A DNA stretch of 64,000 bases from Zootoca vivipara (Eukaryota), in contig NC_083278.1 of NCBI RefSeq assembly GCF_963506605.1, positions 104,904,001 through 104,968,000 of the forward strand. Direction: 5' to 3'. This document shows, in pieces, positions 16,101-61,519 of the stretch. The position numbers were made by a program, and so were the translations under genes. Position 1 is the first letter of the stretch. Each line of letters starts with the position of its first letter. Under the pieces are notes generated by a model. The model saw only the letters and a program-made list of their open reading frames with translations, searched no databases and had not been told where the DNA came from.

Positions 16101-19100
16101 GCCAGCTTCCCTGGAAATCTGTAAACACTACCTCCAAGGAGATTGCAGGTTTGGATCAAGATGCAAGTTCAGGCATGAAACTCGAAACAAGCAAAAAGGC
16201 CTTCCGAGCGTCAAGGAAGATGCTCATCTCAGAGTTAATGCTCCTGTTTATGAACTTGAAATAAGATTTCCTGAGGATAACAAATACCCTTATCAGCCGC
16301 CCCTTGTGGCATTCTATACTACTAATGAGAAGCTGCCATTGGCTTGCCGGTTGCACATTGCTGAATTCCTTTATGAAAAGGCCATAATATCGTCGGAGTC
16401 TAACGAACCTGTTGTTTATGCTTTTATAACAAGCCTAGAGGATGAAGCTGAAGTAACAAAATTGCTTAGTAAGACTTCTCACAGATACAGTGCTCCTCCT
16501 TTGCCTCTGGGAACACCCTTGTCAAGTACAGATGTTCATAAGCAAGAGATGCCTAGCAGCTCTCATGTTCCTTCCCGGATTTCAGAAGGTATATACTACT
16601 TCATAAGTCCTTATTGAAACTAGTGCAGATATTAAGAAACAGGCTGTGTACGCAGTTTTGAGGGTGTAGGTTCTGCTCCCAATCAATATTTCTAGAGCAC
16701 AGCATGTATTTCACACAAGTAGGTGTGTGAAAATGAATAAAAACTGTTACAAAAAAAGATAATAATTAAAAAGTAATTAACCACAAATAGAATTAATAGA
16801 TTTTTAATTCTATTAAAACTACAAATAATAACAAAAATAAAAATATCACAGTACCAGCCCTTTTAAACTTTAAAACTATGTCTTTGAGTTAGTGGAATCA
16901 TTGCAATAAAGATTTCAATGTCATGTAAAATGAAACCACAAAATACCAGTCACAGAATTTCATTATTCTCCAGTTGGGATACAATACTAGGTTAAAATAC
17001 TTTAAGAGAATAATCTCTGGATAAATGAAATCCTATCATATATACTAATAGTAAGCACATGCTCTAGGTGTCTGTCCTTATGTAGCACCACTCACAAACT
17101 TGAGGAACCCTAAATCTTTGGGGAGGGAAAAGTGAGGGAGCAATAAAACTTCAAATAGCTCAGCCAATGATGACTAAGCATAATCTGGGGGAAGAGAGAG
17201 CTGTCTTGGGGGTGGGGGGGTGGGGTGGGCAGGGCTGAATGGAGAAGCCAGGAGAATAGAGTACTGTACCCTGGAAGAAGTTGGGCTGGAATCCTGAACA
17301 GGAGCAATACAACACTGCCACATTTTGTTGTGGGTCACACTTGAAGCCTGCTATAAATATTTCTAACTTTTTAAAATCTAACTTGGTACAATTTTATAAA
17401 AGATACCTTTGATATTTGGGGGAGATTTTTGCACATGCATGCACGCACACACACACACACAGAGTGTATATATGAATAAAGAAATAATAGGCAGATATTT
17501 AGTCAGGAAGATAATACTGTACAGGTGGGGACAACAATTGAGAGCTGTGAAAATAGGATTGTTTTCCTTTATAGCAAATATATGGGTCAGTTGGCGAATG
17601 AAGAAAGCTGCAAGGCCTGGAGTGGGGGTGAGGAGCCTTGGAAATGAATAAATTATATTGTAAGATGAAAAGCCTAATTAAAAACGAATCTCTCTCTCTA
17701 TATATATATTTCTATTTACATTAATGAAGGAGACCGCTTCAGATGAGTTGTCCTCTCCAACTTAATGGAAAATTCTTGCCAGTAAGAGATTTGTGTGTCA
17801 GTGAGAGAGTGTTTATTTTTAGCTCAGAACATAAATCCATACTGAAGCATAATAGATGGGCAAAGAAAAATGCCCATAAAAACTATAGATGAAGCAGCAC
17901 ATAAGCAGCGAGTTAAAAAAATAGCAGCTAAAACCAGTTAAAAGATTCTATGCTCCACTTGAAGTCCGTGAGTACAAGAAGGATTCTGTGCAGTACCGTA
18001 CCTTTGTTAACTACTGTACAACACTTGCCTAAATTTGCCTGCCTTGTGTCCATTATTGGCTGTTTCCTGTTATACTATATTTGCTCACAACACTGTGGCA
18101 CAAGTGAAGCAAATTTTAAAACAGTTGGCCTGATACAAAATGAAAGGGTGTGGGAAATGCTGCTGTGGGAAACTTTTACAACAAAAGGAAACAATACTAG
18201 GATGTTTTGAAAATGCAGGTGAATTCAGAAGGGAGTGACTTGGACAGCTGCAGTACACAGTTGTAGGGGGAGAGTGTGAGAAAACAGAATAGTGGTATCT
18301 TACAGTGAAATGTTATTCTTGTCAGGAATTTTGCTCTGTGAAGGCTTGTAGCTTAGTGGCAAATAACATATTTTGTGTGGACAAAGATTTAATTTCTCGC
18401 ATCTCCCAATAAGGCTGGAAAAGACTGTTGTCTGAAACTCTGGAAAGTTACTGCCAGTTATTGTAGACACTTCTGGGCTTGGTGGTCCAAGGCAACTTTC
18501 CAGGTTCCAGAGGTCAACTCATTACTAAGCCAGTAAAGACCTCATTCTAGCCTCTAGAATTGGCACTCCTGTGGCGAGTGGCCTGCCCAGTGACTATATT
18601 GTTTAGTTCAAGTCCTCATGTGAGTCCTTTATAACATATTGTCAGTTTCCTTGTCCCCAATCCATGTATGTGGTGACCCCTTGCAAGGGCAATGCATCAT
18701 GGGCAGAATTCACCATGGGAGATTTCCCAAAGAAAAGTGCCGCAGGTGATGGAGAACTCTGTTGCCAATGCATGCCAGTCCCTGTGATGAGGACAGCACA
18801 CTGGTTGGGAGCTCTGGTCCTCCAGACTTCAGCTCCCATCATCCGTTGCCAGCGTGGCCAATAGTCTGGGATTATGGGAGTTGCAGTACAGCAGCAACTG
18901 GAAGGCCACAGATATCTTCTCCTTGATCTAGTGAAATGTTATGTTATTAAAAAAAAACCCACCCCTGAAGACTGGTCAGTTAATGTTTCAGAATGGTGTT
19001 TGTTAAGATGTTTTCTGTTTTTAAGCAACTAAGGAGTTGGTGACTGAAGAGGAGGAGGACGAGGAGGACGAAGAGCTGCAGACAGTTCACATAGAGAAAG

Positions 19101-22100
19101 AGAGTTATGTGAATCTCAGGAAAAAGAAGTACCGCACATCAGCAGAGCCAACTTGCAAAGAAAATTATAAAATTTGCCGTCAGTTCAGGATAAAGAAGGT
19201 ACATATGTAACCCTCGGAAGATAAGTGGCAGAGTTACATTTATAACATATTTTCAGCTACTCTTTTTTTAAAAAAAAAACTATTTCCGTGTGTACATATA
19301 ATAGCTGTGGGGAGAAATTGATAGCAAAATCCAGGAGAGAATATTGAAGTTCTGGATATGCAGCATAGATCATAGAATCATAGAGTTGGAAGAGACCACA
19401 AGGGCCATCCAGTCCAACCCCCTGCCAGAACCCCAGGAAACACCAGAACCCTTAATATCTATATTTTCTTTTGTATTTAACACCATTTTATCTCAGAGTT
19501 GCTTCCTATGCTAGAATTTCTTGTATCTTGAAAAAAGATCTGTACAGTGGTACCTCGGGTTAAGAACTTAATTTGTTCCGGAGGTCCGTTCTTAACCTGA
19601 AACAGTTCTTAACCTGAGACACCACTTTAGCTAATGGGGCCTCCCACTGCCGCTGCGCCGCTGGAGCACAATTTCTGTTCTCATCCTGAAGCAAAGTTCT
19701 TAACCCAAGGTACTATTTCTGAGTTAGTGGAGTCTGTAACCTGAAGCGTATGTAACCCGAGCAGTTACATCTGTTTTCCTGGAAAGACTTGTATCTACAG
19801 AATTAATGGAAGACAGTCTAGAAACGTGTGCCTTCTCTGGGTGTGTGTGGACTACAGTATAGTAAACAAAGAAAGAAGTTCATGTAATTGTGGATCATAA
19901 ATTGAGCACTAACAGGCATCTACTGACCATCCACTTACATTTGTCAGTCTTCTAGACACTACCAGTCCCTATTGCAAGAACGACAGAAACTTCCTGCATG
20001 GGAAGAGAGAGAAACCATTCTTAACTTGCTGAACAAATATCAGGTCCTGGTTGTGAGCGGTATGACTGGGTAAGATATAAAACTGTCTGCACACTTGAAC
20101 ACCATGTTAATACTTACTATGTGAAAAGCAGTTTGTCTCTGCCTACAAAACTCAAAAGGGACCTTCAGGCAAGAAAAATGAGAGGGTTTGAAGTCAATAG
20201 TTGAAGTCAATAGTTACAGCAAAGTTTATCCTCCTGTTTATATCTGGCTTTCTGTCTCATCTAGGCTAAACTCTCCTCTCCCTCCCAACGGCTAGAGCAG
20301 ATGAGTTGAGATTAGGCAGAGAGAGAGAAAATAGTTGAAGGAGAAAAAAACCCAGGCAGTGTGCCTTCTTTCTTATAAGTGTTGAATTCAAGCTGTCTCG
20401 CATTTTATTGCCTGTAGAACAGGAATCTTCAGGGTTCTGAACTGGCAGAACTGGCATGCTCTGTATATAGAAGGTGCAGCATTTGCCCAGTTCTTAAGGA
20501 TGCATTCAAGACAACATGAACACTACAGAATACTAGTTACAGGTAGGTAGCCGTGTTGGTCTGAGTCGAAGCAAAATAAAAAAAAATTCCTTCAGTAGCA
20601 CCTTAAAGACCAACTAAGTTTATATTTTGGTATGAGCTTTCGTGTGCATGCACACTGTGCATCTGAAGAAGTGTGCATGCACACGAAAGCTCATACCAAA
20701 ATATAAACTTAGTTGGTCTTTAAGGTGCTACTGAAGGAATTTTTTTATTTTACTACAGAATACTGTTTGGAAACAGGGCTCAGCCTAAAGAACAAAGTGA
20801 AGTATGAGAGGTCTGGATGGTTCCATTCCTTCCCCTACTACATCCCCAATAAAATATTTATCAATTATCATTATTTAAGTTTGTATGCCACCTTTAACTT
20901 GAAGAGCCCAGGGCGGTTCACAGCAGAAAAACACAAAATGAGAATGCAAAATAAAAAACCAATAACTCTCCCTCCCACAAACACATTTAAAAAGCCATAG
21001 AATGTTAATCAGCCAAACGCCATAACAGCAAAAATCTATACATGTATACTCCAGAGTACCCCCCACTGAGAAAGTGGGATTTCCTCTCAGGTAGGCATGT
21101 ATAGGACTGCAACCTAAAGCTGATATACACAGTTCACGTGGAGAAAGATTAAGTCATCCAATTTCTATTATAGTTAATGACCATTTTACGCAGGGGTTCC
21201 ATTCCTGGCCTCCGTGTGTCTCAGCGGGGCACGTATAAGCACGCCCCGCCCCCGTTCCACCCTTTAAGTGACTTTTTATGTTTTTGGTCACTTCCAGGTT
21301 CAACATGCTTGCACATCTTTTGGATGTGTGCTAATCAGTCATTTCTTGTATGTTCTGTCGAAATTATAATTGTAAACACACATGAATGTAAAAGTCAAGT
21401 GAACAATGTGGTTCATTGATTTTGGACCTGATACCTTTAGAGCAGTGGCAGGGGAGTCACTTCCTGCCTGGGGTTGGATTCAAAGTTGTCCAACTTTGCA
21501 GGGGGCTGTAATGGTAAACATTACCAGCAGCAAAAGGGACGGGCTAAAATGGGCAAGGCAAAGAGAATGGCATCTTTTTACATACTTTATTTTATGTTCA
21601 TTGTACATAAAATACGTAAAATGTATGCAAGCTATGTAAAAGGTCAATCTAACACAGGGATCCCCAAACTTATCCGGCTTCGGGCCGGTTCCTCTGGTGC
21701 CAATCACGCGGCGGGCTGGAGGGCAGGGGAATGCGCTCCCATACGCGCGTGCACTTGTTTTTTCCAGTGCCGCGCCGGAAATGGCTTCTGCACATGCGCA
21801 GACGTCATTTTTGGTGCACCTCCGGGTCGGCACAGCACTAGAAATAGCTCGTGCGCATGCGTATGGGAGCACGTTCCTCCAGCCGCACGTGTGCACAAGC
21901 TGTTTATGGCACCACGCCAACCCATAGATGGGCAACCGCACCACGGCGCGCTGATAAGAGCGGCTGACAGCGGGGGCCACACAATTGGCTCGCGCGGGCC
22001 GCATCTGGCCCCCGGGGCCTTAGGTTGGGTACCCCTGATCTAACCCTAGGAAAGCTATGGGAGGTGGCAGGAGAAATTTATATATTTAATTGCAACATTC

Positions 22101-25100
22101 CACGTATAAGATGACCCCCAATTTTAAACGTAAAAAAGTTGGGGGGAAACACAGAAAAATATAGTATTTTTCTGTATTATACACAGAAAAATACAGTATT
22201 TACAAGTGATATCACATGATTGGTGGGAGAATGGAGTTGGGCAGAAATGTCATTGGTGGCCATTTGGAGGGACTGGGCAGGCCAAATTAGGCCTGGAGGT
22301 CAGAGAGTCTCCATCAAACCCAAGGTCTGACAAGTCCAATGTTTCATGGTCTCTGCCATGCCTTCAGCAAACTCATGCAAAGAAAATCTGAAAGATCTTG
22401 CAGGAGGCATTGTGGTTTGCCTACTGGAAGAGACCATATTCAACAAAACTTGACTCTTGGAATGAAATAAGATTTTGCTCCAATTTGGAGTCAGAAGAGT
22501 ATTTCTATACGGCTTGTCTACATTTCAGGTTTGGAATAAATAGTGCAGAAAATAATAGCTCCTGGCTTGAGCCGGTTTGTACAACTGCAATCTTTATTAG
22601 ACAATATTGTACAAAGATTGCTCCTTTTGATTTCTGTTATGTTAACAAGAGTTCTTCATTGGTGTTAGTCAGTGGGCAGATTCAATTTTACATTTATTTA
22701 AATGAATGAATATATAAATAGGAGACAGGAAGGTTTTTCCTTCAGGGTGAAATATAGCCCACCTTTTATTATAGTTTTTTTCATTTTATTGCCATTGTAT
22801 TCTATTGATTTGTTATTATATGAGATAGTCAGGCTGTCTCCTGCAACACCCCATAACATGTTGCTTGAGGGAGAGGAGAATTTTCTTTTTTATTTCATTC
22901 CTCTCCTTCATGCAGATGTGGAAAGACCACTCAGATTCCTCAGTTTATCTTGGATGCCTCCCTAGAAGGTCCTCCCAGTAATTTAGCCAACATCATCTGC
23001 ACCCAGCCTCGCAGGATCTCGGCCATTTCTGTGGCTGAACGTGTAGCCAAGGAGCGAACGGAGAGAGTTGGGGTCACAGTCGGATACCAAATTCGGCTAG
23101 AAAGCGTTATGGTTTGTTTGTTTTTACTTTGTTTTTATTCCAGTGACGGCACGGGTGCAAGCCAATAGACACTCACATCTATTTTTTTTCCCATTTCCCC
23201 CCTAGCAGTGAATTCCCACTGTTGTTGTTATTGTTTTATTAGTCCAAAGGGTAGACTTTTTTTTTCTAGCTGTGCTGGTGGGGAGAGTTGAGGGATAGTA
23301 TCAAGGGGCTATGCAAGAGCACTGGAGTGTTGCGCAGCTTCTGTTAATGTTTTTAAAAGAAACATGTTTTTAAAAAGAGAACAAACAAAGGCTGAACATC
23401 TCAGAAAGCTGACTTCTGTTCCGGGTACCAAAATCCATGAGTGTGCAGTATGTTGTAGGTATAGAATACTTGGAATCCTGGTAACACAAAGTGGCACAAG
23501 CTGAATTCAAAGCTAGTTTCTGAGAGAGTGACTGCTGCCAGAAATAGTCTCCGCTTTTAAATAACTTCTTTGTAAAAAGAAGAAGCTTGCTATTTCATTG
23601 TGATATTTGCTATGGGTCTCTGCCCCCCCCACCCAACTTTCCTGCTGAGAGGTAAGTGGATGGCTAATCAGTGACAAGGCCACCTTTGCTGTGGCACCCA
23701 GACTCTGGATTTCTCACCCTGGCACAGAGCTGATCTTTAAGCCCCAGTCAAAAGCTCTTCCGTTTGCCAAGTTGTTGGTGGCACTCAGTTGGTGATTAAT
23801 CTTTGTTTTGTTTTGAGCTGCTACATCTGCTTGTCGTTTTAGTGTCATTAGATTGTTTTACTGCTTGTTGTGCACAGGGCCGGCTCTAGGTATAGTCCCA
23901 GTGGCGCGGGGTGCCAGAGTGCCGGGCCGGTAGGCCGGGCACTGTGCGGCAAAGCCGCATGGAAGCCATGCTGTGCACTGCGAGGGCGGGGGCTCTGGAG
24001 CGATCTCCGCGCCTCAGCGCCAGGGCACCCGACCTGCTCGAGACTGCCCTGGTTGTGCACTGCTTTTCTGCACAAGAGAGGAGGAAGATGTGTCTGCTCA
24101 TTCCTAGTTCCCTCTACTATATTTGAAGGGATTGCAACATTATCTATGCACTGGCCCTTGATGTTTGCTGAACATGCTTTTCCAGGCAGTGACCAAACTA
24201 CAGCAAGGAATTTTAATCTGCTAATTTCCCATACAGTATTTTTACTTCTGCTATTCATAGGAAGGAACAACACACTTTTCTGGACAATATCCATGGAAAT
24301 CTGAATAAGGCACTAGAGTGTAATCTAAGCAGTGACAGTGATAGGATTAAATATGGGGAAGAAACTGATTTAGTTGGCGATCTTACTGTCAATTTCTATC
24401 TTCTTTCAAGTCTTCAGCTACCCGGTTGTTGTACTGTACTACTGGAGTGCTTCTGAGGAGGCTTGAAGGGGACATGAGTTTAAAAGGAGTCACCCATATT
24501 ATCGTTGATGAGGTTCATGAGAGAACAGAAGAAAGGTAACACAGCCTGTTGGTTTCACTTCTACTATTCATGTATTTCATATTTCCTCTCCTGCTCTTCT
24601 TACTCAAGTGTGGAATGCGAGTGGTTAAGAGTGTCTGAATAGGACCTGGGAGACCCAAGTTCAAATCTTAGCTTGCCATGGAACTTAGAGAGTGACTTTG
24701 GGCCACTCAGCCTAGCCTACCGCACAAGGGTAGTGGTGAGGATAAAGTGAAGAGGAAGGAAAGCCATGTTTGCCACCTTGAGCTACTTGGAGAGCAGGTG
24801 GGATATATATGTAATATATATTCTACAAAGTAAATACATGATTTACCCCTCTTCATCCATGCCATAACTCTGTAAAGTGAATTAGGCTGAGGGGTAGCAG
24901 TTTGTCAAATGTTTAGTCAGTGAGCTTTGCGGCAGAGTGGGGATTTGAACTCAGGTCTCCCCAGTCCTAGTCTGACACACTAATCCATCCTTCCCCAACC
25001 TGGTGCCCTCCAGATGTTGGTCTGCAACTGTCATCGGCTCTAGCCAGAACGGCCAGTGTGAACGGTTTTGGTAAATACCATATATTGCCTGAGAAACAGT

Positions 25101-46094: not shown

Positions 46095-46896
46095 AGTTAC
46101 AGGTAGGTAGCTGTGTTGGTCTGAGTCGAAGCAAAATAAAAAATTTCCTTCAGTAGCACCTTAAAGACCAACTAAGTTTTTTTTTGGTATGGGCTTTTGT
46201 GTGTGTTAGGGAATTTTATGGGGGGGGGGAATCAAGATTGGCACAAATGCCCTCAAGGGGACCCTGTCTGATCCTACAACACCACTCTAGTATCGCACCA
46301 ACATGAACCCCTCAAGATCAAGCCCTGTGTAATAAAGGCTCCCTTTCCTACCCTTTCTCTGTTGCCTGAGACTCTATGTAACCATATTTCTTTATGAATG
46401 AATACTGTGTATTTGCGACTCTGGCCAAGGGCTCTCAGGGATGCAGGGAACAGCCATAATCCTTTAAGCGAGAGGTCACGTAGCCAGGGTGGTGCTCCTC
46501 TGCATATCCATAATCCATTCAGGTACCATCTCCGGCCATTCCCCACCCTCCGAAGCCAGAGGCAATACACACACCTGGACCCATTGTTCCCCCCCCCCAG
46601 GTACTCAAGGATCCCCTCCCAGATACTTACTGGTACTTGCTTATCAATGTCCTGGGACATCGCACATTGTTACCTTATGTTAATCCTGTTTACCTCCTGT
46701 TTACCTGTATGCTAATGCCCCTTGCACCTTCCCCTTTTCTGACATTTTACCCTGTCACAAGTTATGTATGCATGATGCTTTCGATTCTCGCACTCAGAAT
46801 TTTGCCCTAACAGTGTGCATGCACACGAAAGCTCATAACAAAATAAAAACTTAGTTGGTCTTTAAGGTGCCACTGAAGGATTTTTTTTTATTTTGC
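46095..46896. mobile_element. Penelope-like fold-back remnant interrupted by a solo LTR
   Basis: Arms nearly identical to 20535-20751; 10-bp TSD CAGATGTTCT. Confidence 0.8.
46204..46812. mobile_element. Solo LTR, 609 bp
   Basis: TGTTAGGG...CCCTAACA termini (TG...CA with short inverted ends) and a 5-bp TSD GTGTG. Confidence 0.82.
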
Positions 46897-60467: not shown

Positions 60468-60626
60468 CTGCAATACAATTTCATTATTGTTTGTTTTTTT
60501 AAAAAAAAAAATCACATTGGCTAGAGTCCAGCTACTAGACTGATGTACCTAGATGAGCACGTGTGCCAAAAGATTACACGTGACAACCATGGATCACTTC
60601 CAGGATTCAAAATACTGTATTTAAAT

Positions 60627-60762
60627 CTGTGTTTCCCAAGCTTGGGCCTCCAGCTGTTTTCGGACTACAATTCCCATCATCCCTGACCACAGGTCTTGCT
60701 AGCTAGGGATGGTGGGAGTTGAAGTCCAAAACCAGCTGGAGACCCAAGCTTGGGAAACACTG
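60627..60762. mobile_element. 136-bp palindromic hAT MITE
   Basis: Inverted arms; 8-bp TSD ATTTAAAT. Confidence 0.88.
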
Positions 60763-61519
60763 ATTTAAATGAACTTTAATCTGCAACGATGAGGACTAGA
60801 GACAGTCCTCTATTAAATCACCAGAAAGATGCTTCACAGAGCAGTTTGGTAAACCATTCTTCAAAGTGCTTCCCACCCTCCTGCTGTTAAAACAGCTCAC
60901 CTGGGCCACCGGTCACCCATGCTGTCTGCTTGCTTGCCTGCTGTTCCATTGTCATGCTACCATTGGGACTGCAGCATGATGATAGCCTTACATTTTTATG
61001 TATATAGGAAGATATACACACATGTAATGCACGCTATATAGTAAGCTTGGTGAGAGACGGTGATTCACACATAAAACAGCCTTCCTCAAACTTATGCCTT
61101 CCACATGTTTTGGACTACATAAGATGGCCAGCATTAGATGAGGATTATAGCCCAAAACAGCTGGCACACACCAGGTTGTAGAAGGCTGCTGTAAAATTTC
61201 TTAAGCCTCAGCACCTGGGAAAGGATTATTCCAAACAAAAGCATGTGTTTCATGTGTTGGTTAACTGGCGGCATGAATGGGCAGTCTATCATAAAAAATC
61301 TAGCTGTTCCAACACGATGCCAACACTGAGCAGGCCACAAAAATAAGGTAAGACTACAGCACAGATCTTCACAGCTCAAACCCATTTAATTCTGTAAGGT
61401 GGTAATTCTGGCCGGTTGGTGTCCATCAGAGATGGGAACACAGGTGGGCAAAAATGATTGGGAAAATGTGTTCCTGTACTGAATCAGCCAAAGATCTATT
61501 CTCAAGTTTGTTCTTAAAA

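What the first reader, a model, noticed from the sequence alone, without database searches (positions are those of the whole stretch)
20659..20696. Minimal hammerhead ribozyme motif in a Penelope-like remnant, sense to the DHX57 pre-mRNA
Seen: gcat CUGAAGA a GUGUG-caug-CACAC GAAA gc UC auac. This has both invariant hammerhead boxes (CUGANGA, GAAA), a 5-bp stem II, a tiny stem III and a UH triplet (UC, predicted cut after 20692). Stem I is GCAU/AUAC; the sister copy at 6391-6420 shows the fully pairing GUAU 5' arm. Known: Penelope-like elements carry minimal type I hammerheads that often work as dimers. Inference: the motif is on the transcribed strand of the intron after DHX57 coding exon 6, so the nascent RNA may hold a latent self-cleaving site. 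The 14-nt self-complementary GUGUGCAUGCACAC could support dimer formation, while the surrounding fold-back would compete with ribozyme folding.
Basis: partly seen in the sequence, partly recalled or inferred. Interest (0 to 1): 0.7.

Follow-up and report, generated by a model that had tools for sequence, protein, structure and literature searches.

The report
Penelope retrotransposon hammerhead trapped in hairpin
This is a small self-cleaving-RNA (hammerhead) motif of a known kind, carried by one of more than 17,000 scattered scraps of a lizard jumping gene; here it sits in an intron but is predicted to be locked inside a long hairpin and likely harmless, while the copies as a group likely record where the element's capped RNA starts.

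Summary
The motif is real and lies on the sense strand of DHX57 intron 6. It is the minimal type I hammerhead of a Neptune-type Penelope-like element (PLE), a published class. The 33-nt core occurs 17,441 times exactly in this genome; intact 3,030-bp parents encode RT plus GIY-YIG. This copy is a 217-bp, TSD-flanked hairpin insertion. Its antisense arm is transcribed first and pairs the 3' half of the ribozyme (predicted stem II probability below 1e-6). Stem I has a private mismatch, and no partner core for the needed dimer lies in the pre-mRNA. A latent cut in DHX57 RNA is therefore unlikely. The family is more informative: copy 5' ends pile up at the first bases of stem I (29 of 128 arms), none at the cut site. 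4,765 of 16,884 copies have a non-T base just before stem I, G in 68 of 100 (control 11 of 100), about 30 nt below a TATA-like box. Likely reading: the capped PLE RNA starts on the ribozyme, and internally primed, uncut RNA yields run-off cDNAs. The scan noted this same reading before on other DNA of this genome (e1-9556134); I tested it here independently.

The parts
20522..20534 (.). Left target-site duplication, 13 bp
   Evidence: identical to 20752-20764; corrects the coordinates in notebook entry 1
20535..20574 (-). PLE 'tail': about 40 nt present on one arm only; its outer end is the distal end point (about +128 from C3, a few nt before the ORF start codon in full-length units)
   Evidence: tail concept from PMC8557442 and PMC11167929
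20575..20656 (-). Antisense arm of the hairpin: element positions +88 down to +7, broken off inside the hammerhead; pairs with 20670-20751
   Evidence: 82 nt, 98% complementary
20657..20751 (+). Sense arm: element positions -6 to +88, holding the whole hammerhead
   Evidence: 97.9% to subfamily member L228
20659..20696 (+). Minimal type I hammerhead motif (stem I 20659-62/20693-96 with private C20660 mismatch; CUGAAGA 20663-69; extra A 20670; stem II 20671-84; GAAA 20685-88; loopless palindromic stem III AGCU 20688-91; predicted cut after C20692)
20752..20764 (.). Right target-site duplication, 13 bp
19948..20069 (+). DHX57 coding exon 6 (upstream of the insertion)
20070..22915 (+). DHX57 intron after coding exon 6, host of the insertion
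   Evidence: (GT..AG joint in contig of run X1)
6390..6534 (.). Sister hairpin insertion of a related subfamily, upstream of the DHX57 coding start; minus-strand core truncated after GAAAG, with a G just before stem I; 13-bp duplication 6378-6390/6535-6547 read by eye
46095..46896 (.). Third family copy, beyond the last DHX57 coding exon: hairpin centred on the 14-nt stem II palindrome, no CUGAAGA box, split by a 609-bp insert
   Evidence: read by eye

Best explanation
This is a passenger copy of the minimal hammerhead found in the leader of a Neptune-type Penelope-like retrotransposon; it sits in a 217-bp hairpin insertion in DHX57 intron 6 and is predicted not to fold or cut there. How the insertion likely arose: (1) shown: intact 3,030-bp head-to-tail parents exist, with a TATA-like box, then the hammerhead, then about 100 nt, then an RT plus GIY-YIG ORF; (2) inferred: the capped transcript starts at or next to the first base of stem I; (3) inferred, by analogy to the anole PLE in vitro: the protein nicks both target strands 13 bp apart, and each end primes reverse transcription internally, at about +128 and +88; (4) inferred: the cDNAs run off or stop near the RNA 5' end and are joined end to end, giving the hairpin with a one-sided tail; (5) shown: the copies contain both sides of the cut site, so the template was uncut; (6) predicted: in the DHX57 pre-mRNA the antisense arm is made first and captures the ribozyme's 3' half in an 82-bp duplex.
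For: Family size 17,441 exact cores. Parent with 925-codon open frame, RVT_1 E=5.5e-12, GIY-YIG E=6e-5 and a C-x4-C-x2-C linker. TSD and tail. In 90 tail-anchored loci the inverted arms start at +81..+96 in 35 of 38 and main arms end at +121..+140 in 89 of 90; 5' ends fall at -6..-3 in 14 of 90 main arms and 15 of 38 inverted arms, and in 0 of 128 at +29..+31. Non-T before stem I: 4,765 against 12,119 with T; G in 68 of the first 100 listed against 11 of 100 at a control T four bases on, where only 719 non-T copies exist (Fisher p=4e-17). 56 of 60 such loci have flank or the other arm upstream, not element sequence. Extra G marks capped 5' ends in L1 insertions (PMC11702581). Folding: -147.3 kcal/mol, z=-20; stem II probability below 1e-6 in three contexts. 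DHX57 is spliced across the intron.
Against: This copy's own junction has no extra G and runs two bases beyond stem I (to -6, matching its subfamily); such ends are common (2,531 copies with non-A at -7) and I could not explain them fully. 7 of the 38 G cases among 60 loci follow TTCA and could be antisense element sequence, and a TSD could be called for only 14 of 60 (one is spurious; of the 10 flush ones 9 have G, 5 of which match the next target base). Reverse transcriptases can add bases at any run-off end, so the G shows an RNA end more firmly than a cap. The samples are the first hits on contig C1, not random. Equilibrium folding is not a cleavage assay. No start-site data were available.
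Confidence: 0.8

Rival explanations
1. The copy is a latent, functional intronic ribozyme that sometimes cuts DHX57 pre-mRNA, helped by proteins or by pairing in trans with one of the many other copies, like the domesticated intronic hammerheads of RECK or DTNB.
For: All invariant core bases are intact and on the transcribed strand. Family RNA is abundant in three RNA-seq runs, so trans partners exist. PLE protein switches on the anole hammerhead in vitro. The insertion appears present without an empty-site branch in 3 of 4 DNA runs.
Against: 82-bp fold-back made first, stem II probability below 1e-6; private stem I mismatch while 335 of 345 family reads in one run have T; no cis partner; near-identity to thousands of young copies; none of the tertiary-contact anatomy of canonical intronic hammerheads; DHX57 is spliced across the site.
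Confidence: 0.05
2. The pile-up of copy ends at stem I comes from something other than a capped start: a splice acceptor (as in Drosophila virilis Penelope, where the intron ends at helix I), an RT stop at a folded structure, or microhomology joins on TG repeats.
For: Some subfamilies have a pyrimidine tract plus AG ending at -6; PMC4209133 reports the intron end at helix I in D. virilis. Ends at -5/-6 with TG are frequent (38 of 100).
Against: Position -6 is C, G or A across subfamilies (27, 28, 13 of 68), so the AG is not kept; a spliced template would give one constant upstream exon, but upstream sequences are all different; RT meets a structure from its 3' side, near +33, where no pile-up is seen; neither route explains G specifically at -5.
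Confidence: 0.15
3. The 217-bp hairpin is itself a non-autonomous mobile unit (MITE- or SINE-like) that copies as a whole.
For: 40 of 40 scored hits match nearly the whole 211-bp query at 92-100%.
Against: Junctions and outer ends differ from copy to copy, arm lengths form a continuum up to full length, and the hairpin lacks the TATA-like box; the hits were ranked by likeness to the query.
Confidence: 0.08

Closest known systems
Minimal hammerheads (min-HHR) of metazoan Penelope-like elements, Cervera and de la Pena 2014 (PMC4209133)
   Same: Type I core, short 4-bp helix I, unpaired base between A9 and G10.1, G10.1-C11.1 pair, palindromic loopless helix III, location in the pLTR, thousands of solitary genomic copies, reported in Neptune elements and in reptiles.
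   Different: Helix II is 5 bp with a fully palindromic stem-loop; this copy is fused to its own antisense arm. The paper parts I read do not report a start site or an extra G at helix I.
PAc, Poseidon element of Anolis carolinensis, Frangieh et al. 2024 (PMC11167929)
   Same: Hammerhead near the ORF start, two internal RT start sites that define the tail, both target strands extended, uncut RNA used as template.
   Different: Here the element has the Neptune/Nematis-type linker zinc motif, the hammerhead lies about 130 nt upstream of the ATG instead of overlapping it, and the evidence is genomic, not biochemical.
Typical EN+ PLE insertions with inverted pLTR, tail and TSD (PMC3846280, PMC8557442)
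   Same: Inverted truncated arm, 30-40 nt one-sided tail, TSD, TATA box within the pLTR.
   Different: This insertion has no ORF sequence at all; PMC3846280 explains the inverted junctions by self-priming on an antisense template, whereas the extra G seen here points to a sense, likely capped template.
Conserved intronic hammerheads of amniotes (RECK, CTCL, DTNB; review PMC6155905)
   Same: Type I hammerhead, sense in an intron of an amniote gene.
   Different: Those are canonical, single-copy and conserved over long times; this is minimal, one of over 17,000 near-identical young copies, and sequestered.
Non-LTR retrozymes (bioRxiv 10.64898/2026.07.22.740005)
   Same: PLE-derived non-coding sequence with a type I hammerhead.
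   Different: Retrozymes are head-to-tail tandem arrays with two or more motifs; this is a single inverted insertion with one.

Membership tests
PLE minimal type I hammerhead | Invariant boxes CUGANGA, GAAA and UH triplet | tested here: met
PLE minimal type I hammerhead | Helix II with G10.1-C11.1 and an unpaired base 5' of it | tested here: met
PLE minimal type I hammerhead | Helix I of 4-5 bp | tested here: inconclusive
   4 of 4 pairs in the family form (L121), 3 of 4 in this copy
PLE minimal type I hammerhead | Palindromic 15.2/16.2 allowing a dimeric helix III | tested here: met
   AGCU self-pairs, -2.5 kcal/mol; kept in 97 of 98 arms per position
PLE minimal type I hammerhead | Core kept better than flanks across copies, N7 free | tested here: met
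   core 11 of 1078 changed, +34..+72 136 of 3798, N7 15 of 98; copies are not independent and +46..+72 alone is 53 of 2622
PLE minimal type I hammerhead | Self-cleavage as dimer or with element protein | not testable with these tools
   needs an in vitro assay
EN+ Penelope-like element | Single ORF with RT and C-terminal GIY-YIG | tested here: met
   in parent copies L121, L122, L124, L125; absent from this short copy
EN+ Penelope-like element | Tandem or partial-tandem units forming pLTRs, inverted arm, one-sided tail, TSD | tested here: met
Neptune clade | CX2-5CxxC zinc motif between RT and EN, CxxC between GIY and YIG | tested here: met
   definition from PMC8557442; Nematis shares the linker
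Neptune clade | RT phylogeny groups with named Neptune elements | not tested
   no named reference set was on hand; best hits are unnamed turtle proteins at 61-70%
Domesticated intronic hammerhead (RECK/DTNB type) | Able to fold in its pre-mRNA context | tested here: not met
   predicted stem II probability below 1e-6
Domesticated intronic hammerhead (RECK/DTNB type) | Canonical helix I of 6 bp or more with loop contacts, monomeric helix III | tested here: not met
   no Rfam hammerhead hit
Domesticated intronic hammerhead (RECK/DTNB type) | Conserved at the orthologous site across species | not testable with these tools
   no related genomes held; DNA runs are of one species label
Non-LTR retrozyme | Head-to-tail tandem with two or more hammerheads | tested here: not met
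   one sense core at this locus

The most novel reading that the evidence does not exclude
The lizard genome holds thousands of 'fossil 5'-RACE' products showing that the capped Penelope mRNA begins on the first base of the hammerhead. Internal priming near the RNA's 5' end, on one or both target strands, would then be the main in vivo reaction of this element and the source of most copies, including this hairpin. The ribozyme would be a 5'-terminal switch whose cut removes a 34-nt capped fragment (self-decapping that ends translation or limits the element), not the tool that releases unit-length RNA for integration.
Probability: 0.5. Interest if true: 0.6.

Novelty: new member of a known kind. 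Interest (0 to 1): 0.33.

Why it matters
For DHX57 it probably does not matter: it is one ordinary insertion among tens of thousands. For PLE biology the family is a large natural data set on an open question, the role of the hammerhead and the path of reverse transcription. It agrees with the in vitro internal-priming result for the anole element, places the likely capped start on stem I, and shows that cut RNA is rarely if ever the template. That makes a self-decapping role directly testable with the intact parents found here.

Tried and rejected
Rfam scan: no hammerhead family up to E=10; the mir-559, mir-466 and mir-297 hits over 20589-20737 are below gathering score and reflect the long hairpin. 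Loose core pattern: chance level. Isolated 38-mer folding: z=+0.42, no support from stability alone. Stem II palindrome as main joining point: only 292 perfect hairpins centred on it, a minor class. Compensatory change at stem II position 4: the 321 variants are mostly single mutants of the main family; about 7 of the first 100 are other stems, and the pattern fixed the core, so this is no test of conservation. Capped start at -7: G in only 10 of 100 at -8, most hits being a subfamily with A. RNA reads: three raw RNA-seq runs showed no pile of ends at 20692/20693, but reads on the repeat come from the whole family, about 6% of each run was read, unique intron depth was near zero and fragmented libraries would blur such ends, so this is uninformative. 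No holder was on record as RNA. Polymorphism: left-flank contigs run into the element in X15, X17, X18; X19 is too shallow; no empty-site joint among those listed, with 313 joints not shown. The second half (linking the -6 base to tail type) printed nothing. Supplements of PMC4209133 and PMC11167929 were not read and may list this family or read-end data.

Full report
Observation. Numbering below sets C3 of the hammerhead (window 20663) to 0. Both boxes, a 5-bp stem II, the extra A and the UC triplet are present; stem I has a C-A mismatch at 20660. The loose two-box pattern is at chance level in the window (6 seen, mean 5.5) and Rfam found no hammerhead among 30 matches up to E=10. The exact 33-mer 20663-20695, however, occurs 8,682 + 8,759 = 17,441 times in the genome, reversed control 0.

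Host gene. The large exon at 15769-16608 is 96% identical to Podarcis muralis DHX57, so the genome is likely a lacertid lizard. tblastn places 23 coding blocks on the + strand from 10163 to 40461, the sixth at 19939-20070. A 5,301-nt contig from run X1 (RNA by guess) joins 19196 to 19946 and 20068 to 22915 with GT..AG ends. The motif is thus sense in intron 6.

The insertion. It spans 20535-20751 between 13-bp duplications at 20522-20534 and 20752-20764. Arms 20575-20656 and 20670-20751 are 98% complementary over 82 nt. The left arm is antisense, from about +128 down to +7, and includes a 40-nt tail with no partner; the right arm is sense, -6 to +88. It differs from long subfamily member L228 by 1 substitution (20660) and 2 one-base gaps in homopolymer runs. 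Left-flank contigs continue into the element in 3 of 4 DNA runs; the fourth is too shallow, and one run may be the assembly's source.

The parent. Walking upstream from copies gave 3,030-bp head-to-tail units with 925-codon open frames in 4 of 6 regions fetched (L121, L122, L124, L125); L123 is frameshifted and L126 is a short array. Pfam: RVT_1 E=5.5e-12, GIY-YIG E=6.2e-5. A C-x4-C-x2-C linker and a CxxC inside the nuclease fit the Neptune/Nematis description in PMC8557442 (passages). Best named relatives are turtle proteins at 61-70%. In each unit the order is TATA-like box, hammerhead, about 100 nt, tail end, ATG.

Is the ribozyme under selection? In 98 distinct arms from 90 tail-anchored loci, the 11 invariant positions changed in 11 of 1,078 cells (6 of them G12>A at a CpG), positions +34..+72 in 136 of 3,798, and N7 in 15 of 98 (p=2e-6, but copies share ancestry, and +46..+72 alone is 53 of 2,622). 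In RNA reads N7 (20667) was the only listed variable core position, with 13 rows not shown. This fits selection in source elements, not at this locus.

Can it cut here? Window 20520-20770 folds into one long hairpin, -147.3 kcal/mol, z=-20. In three contexts the fold-back pairs have probability 0.9997-0.9999 and stems I and II below 1e-6. The antisense arm is transcribed first, so it is waiting when the ribozyme emerges (inference). Of 6 two-box matches in the window, only this one is on the + strand between the first and last DHX57 coding exons; the sister at 6391-6420 is on the other strand, upstream and truncated, and the copy at 46095-46896 has no CUGAAGA. PMC4209133 (parts 1-2 of 4 read) found no cleavage by a single minimal motif and low activity for dimers; PMC11167929 (parts 1-2 of 4 read) found cleavage only with element protein, no need of it for insertion, and no RNA-seq reads ending at the cut. 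Two copies of the 38-mer are predicted to pair through the 14-nt palindrome (-25.2 kcal/mol against -8.2 for two hairpins), which dismantles stem II as a hairpin; the AGCU stem III that defines the active dimer gives -2.5. I infer the palindrome competes with the active dimer.

What the family records. I took 90 of the first 100 listed matches to a 24-nt tail pattern (15,816 matches in all; 10 left out: 5 in one tandem array, 2 in a full-length tandem, the last 3 of the list). All 90 had a main arm and 38 an adjacent inverted arm. Inverted arms start at +81..+96 in 35 of 38; main arms end at +121..+140 in 89 of 90. 5' ends lie at -6..-3 in 14 of 90 main arms and 15 of 38 inverted arms; another 14 of 90 main arms end at +3..+13, as the left arm here does; none of 128 ends at +29..+31. 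Genome-wide, the base before stem I is T (templated) in 12,119 copies and not T in 4,765. By my hand count of the first 100 listed it is G 68, A 19, C 13; at a control T four bases downstream there are 719 non-T copies, G 11, A 31, C 58 (Fisher p=4e-17). Of the first 60 such loci, 56 have flank or the opposite arm upstream and 4 have element sequence, so the G is not a subfamily variant; 7 of 38 G cases follow TTCA and may be antisense sequence. A TSD was found for 14 of 60; among the 10 genuine flush ones, 9 have G, 4 not explained by the target and 5 matching the next target base. TATATA(A) lies about 30 nt upstream of G(-4). An extra G at 5' junctions is the published sign of capped templates for L1 (PMC11702581, passage). 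A start at -7 has no such support. This copy ends at -6 without an extra G; ends at -5/-6 are common and remain partly unexplained.

Mechanism. Likely: capped RNA starting at stem I; double nicking 13 bp apart; internal priming at +128 from one target end and +88 from the other; run-off near the RNA 5' end; end joining after loss of about 13 nt from one cDNA. The parts, positions and counts are shown; the start site, the priming and the joining are inferred.

Literature and novelty. The motif class, its place in PLE pLTRs, inverted arms and tails are published (PMC4209133; PMC8557442 and PMC3846280, passages). Conserved intronic hammerheads are a different kind (PMC6155905, passages). Retrozymes need tandem arrays (bioRxiv 10.64898/2026.07.22.740005, part 1 of 5 and passages). 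Searches listed no paper that, from title, abstract or the passages I read, reports a capped start on stem I of a PLE hammerhead; most listed papers were seen only as listings, and subscription journals and supplements were not searched. After forming this reading (note, tests) I found that an earlier agent reached the same one on another copy in this genome (e1-9556134); that is not independent support.

Verdict. A real, ordinary PLE hammerhead, likely inert at this locus; the family-level start-site signature is the part worth following. Interest 0.33.

Noticed in passing
window 46204-46812: 609-bp insert with 8-bp terminal inverted repeats (TG...CA ends) and a 5-bp duplication, landed in the centre of a PLE hairpin; looks like a solo LTR (label from my own knowledge, not tested).
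   Followed up: no
L126:1320-3742 (G000:C1 about 2.777-2.780 Mb): Array of four 598-bp units, 99.8-100% identical, each joining the ORF start to the ORF end of the PLE and each holding an intact hammerhead: a retrozyme-like, internally deleted tandem where a dimer could form.
   Followed up: partly
L132, L133, L145, L153 and other hits: A few hammerhead-like matches with quite different stem II sequences, probably older or other PLE families in the same genome.
   Followed up: no
L251:340-430: A copy starting G + stem I is joined directly behind tail plus ORF-start sequence of another unit, suggesting a template jump between two RNAs.
   Followed up: no
window 9331-9478, 60619-60770 and six further copies: Another abundant short palindromic repeat family that hits Rfam mir-5408 below gathering score; likely a MITE-type element.
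   Followed up: no
window 19369-19427: Intronic 60-nt stretch with very high RNA depth and many loose ends, i.e. another highly transcribed repeat.
   Followed up: no
G000, 292 sites: Perfect hairpin insertions centred exactly on the 14-nt stem II palindrome, consistent with two cDNAs annealing through it.
   Followed up: partly
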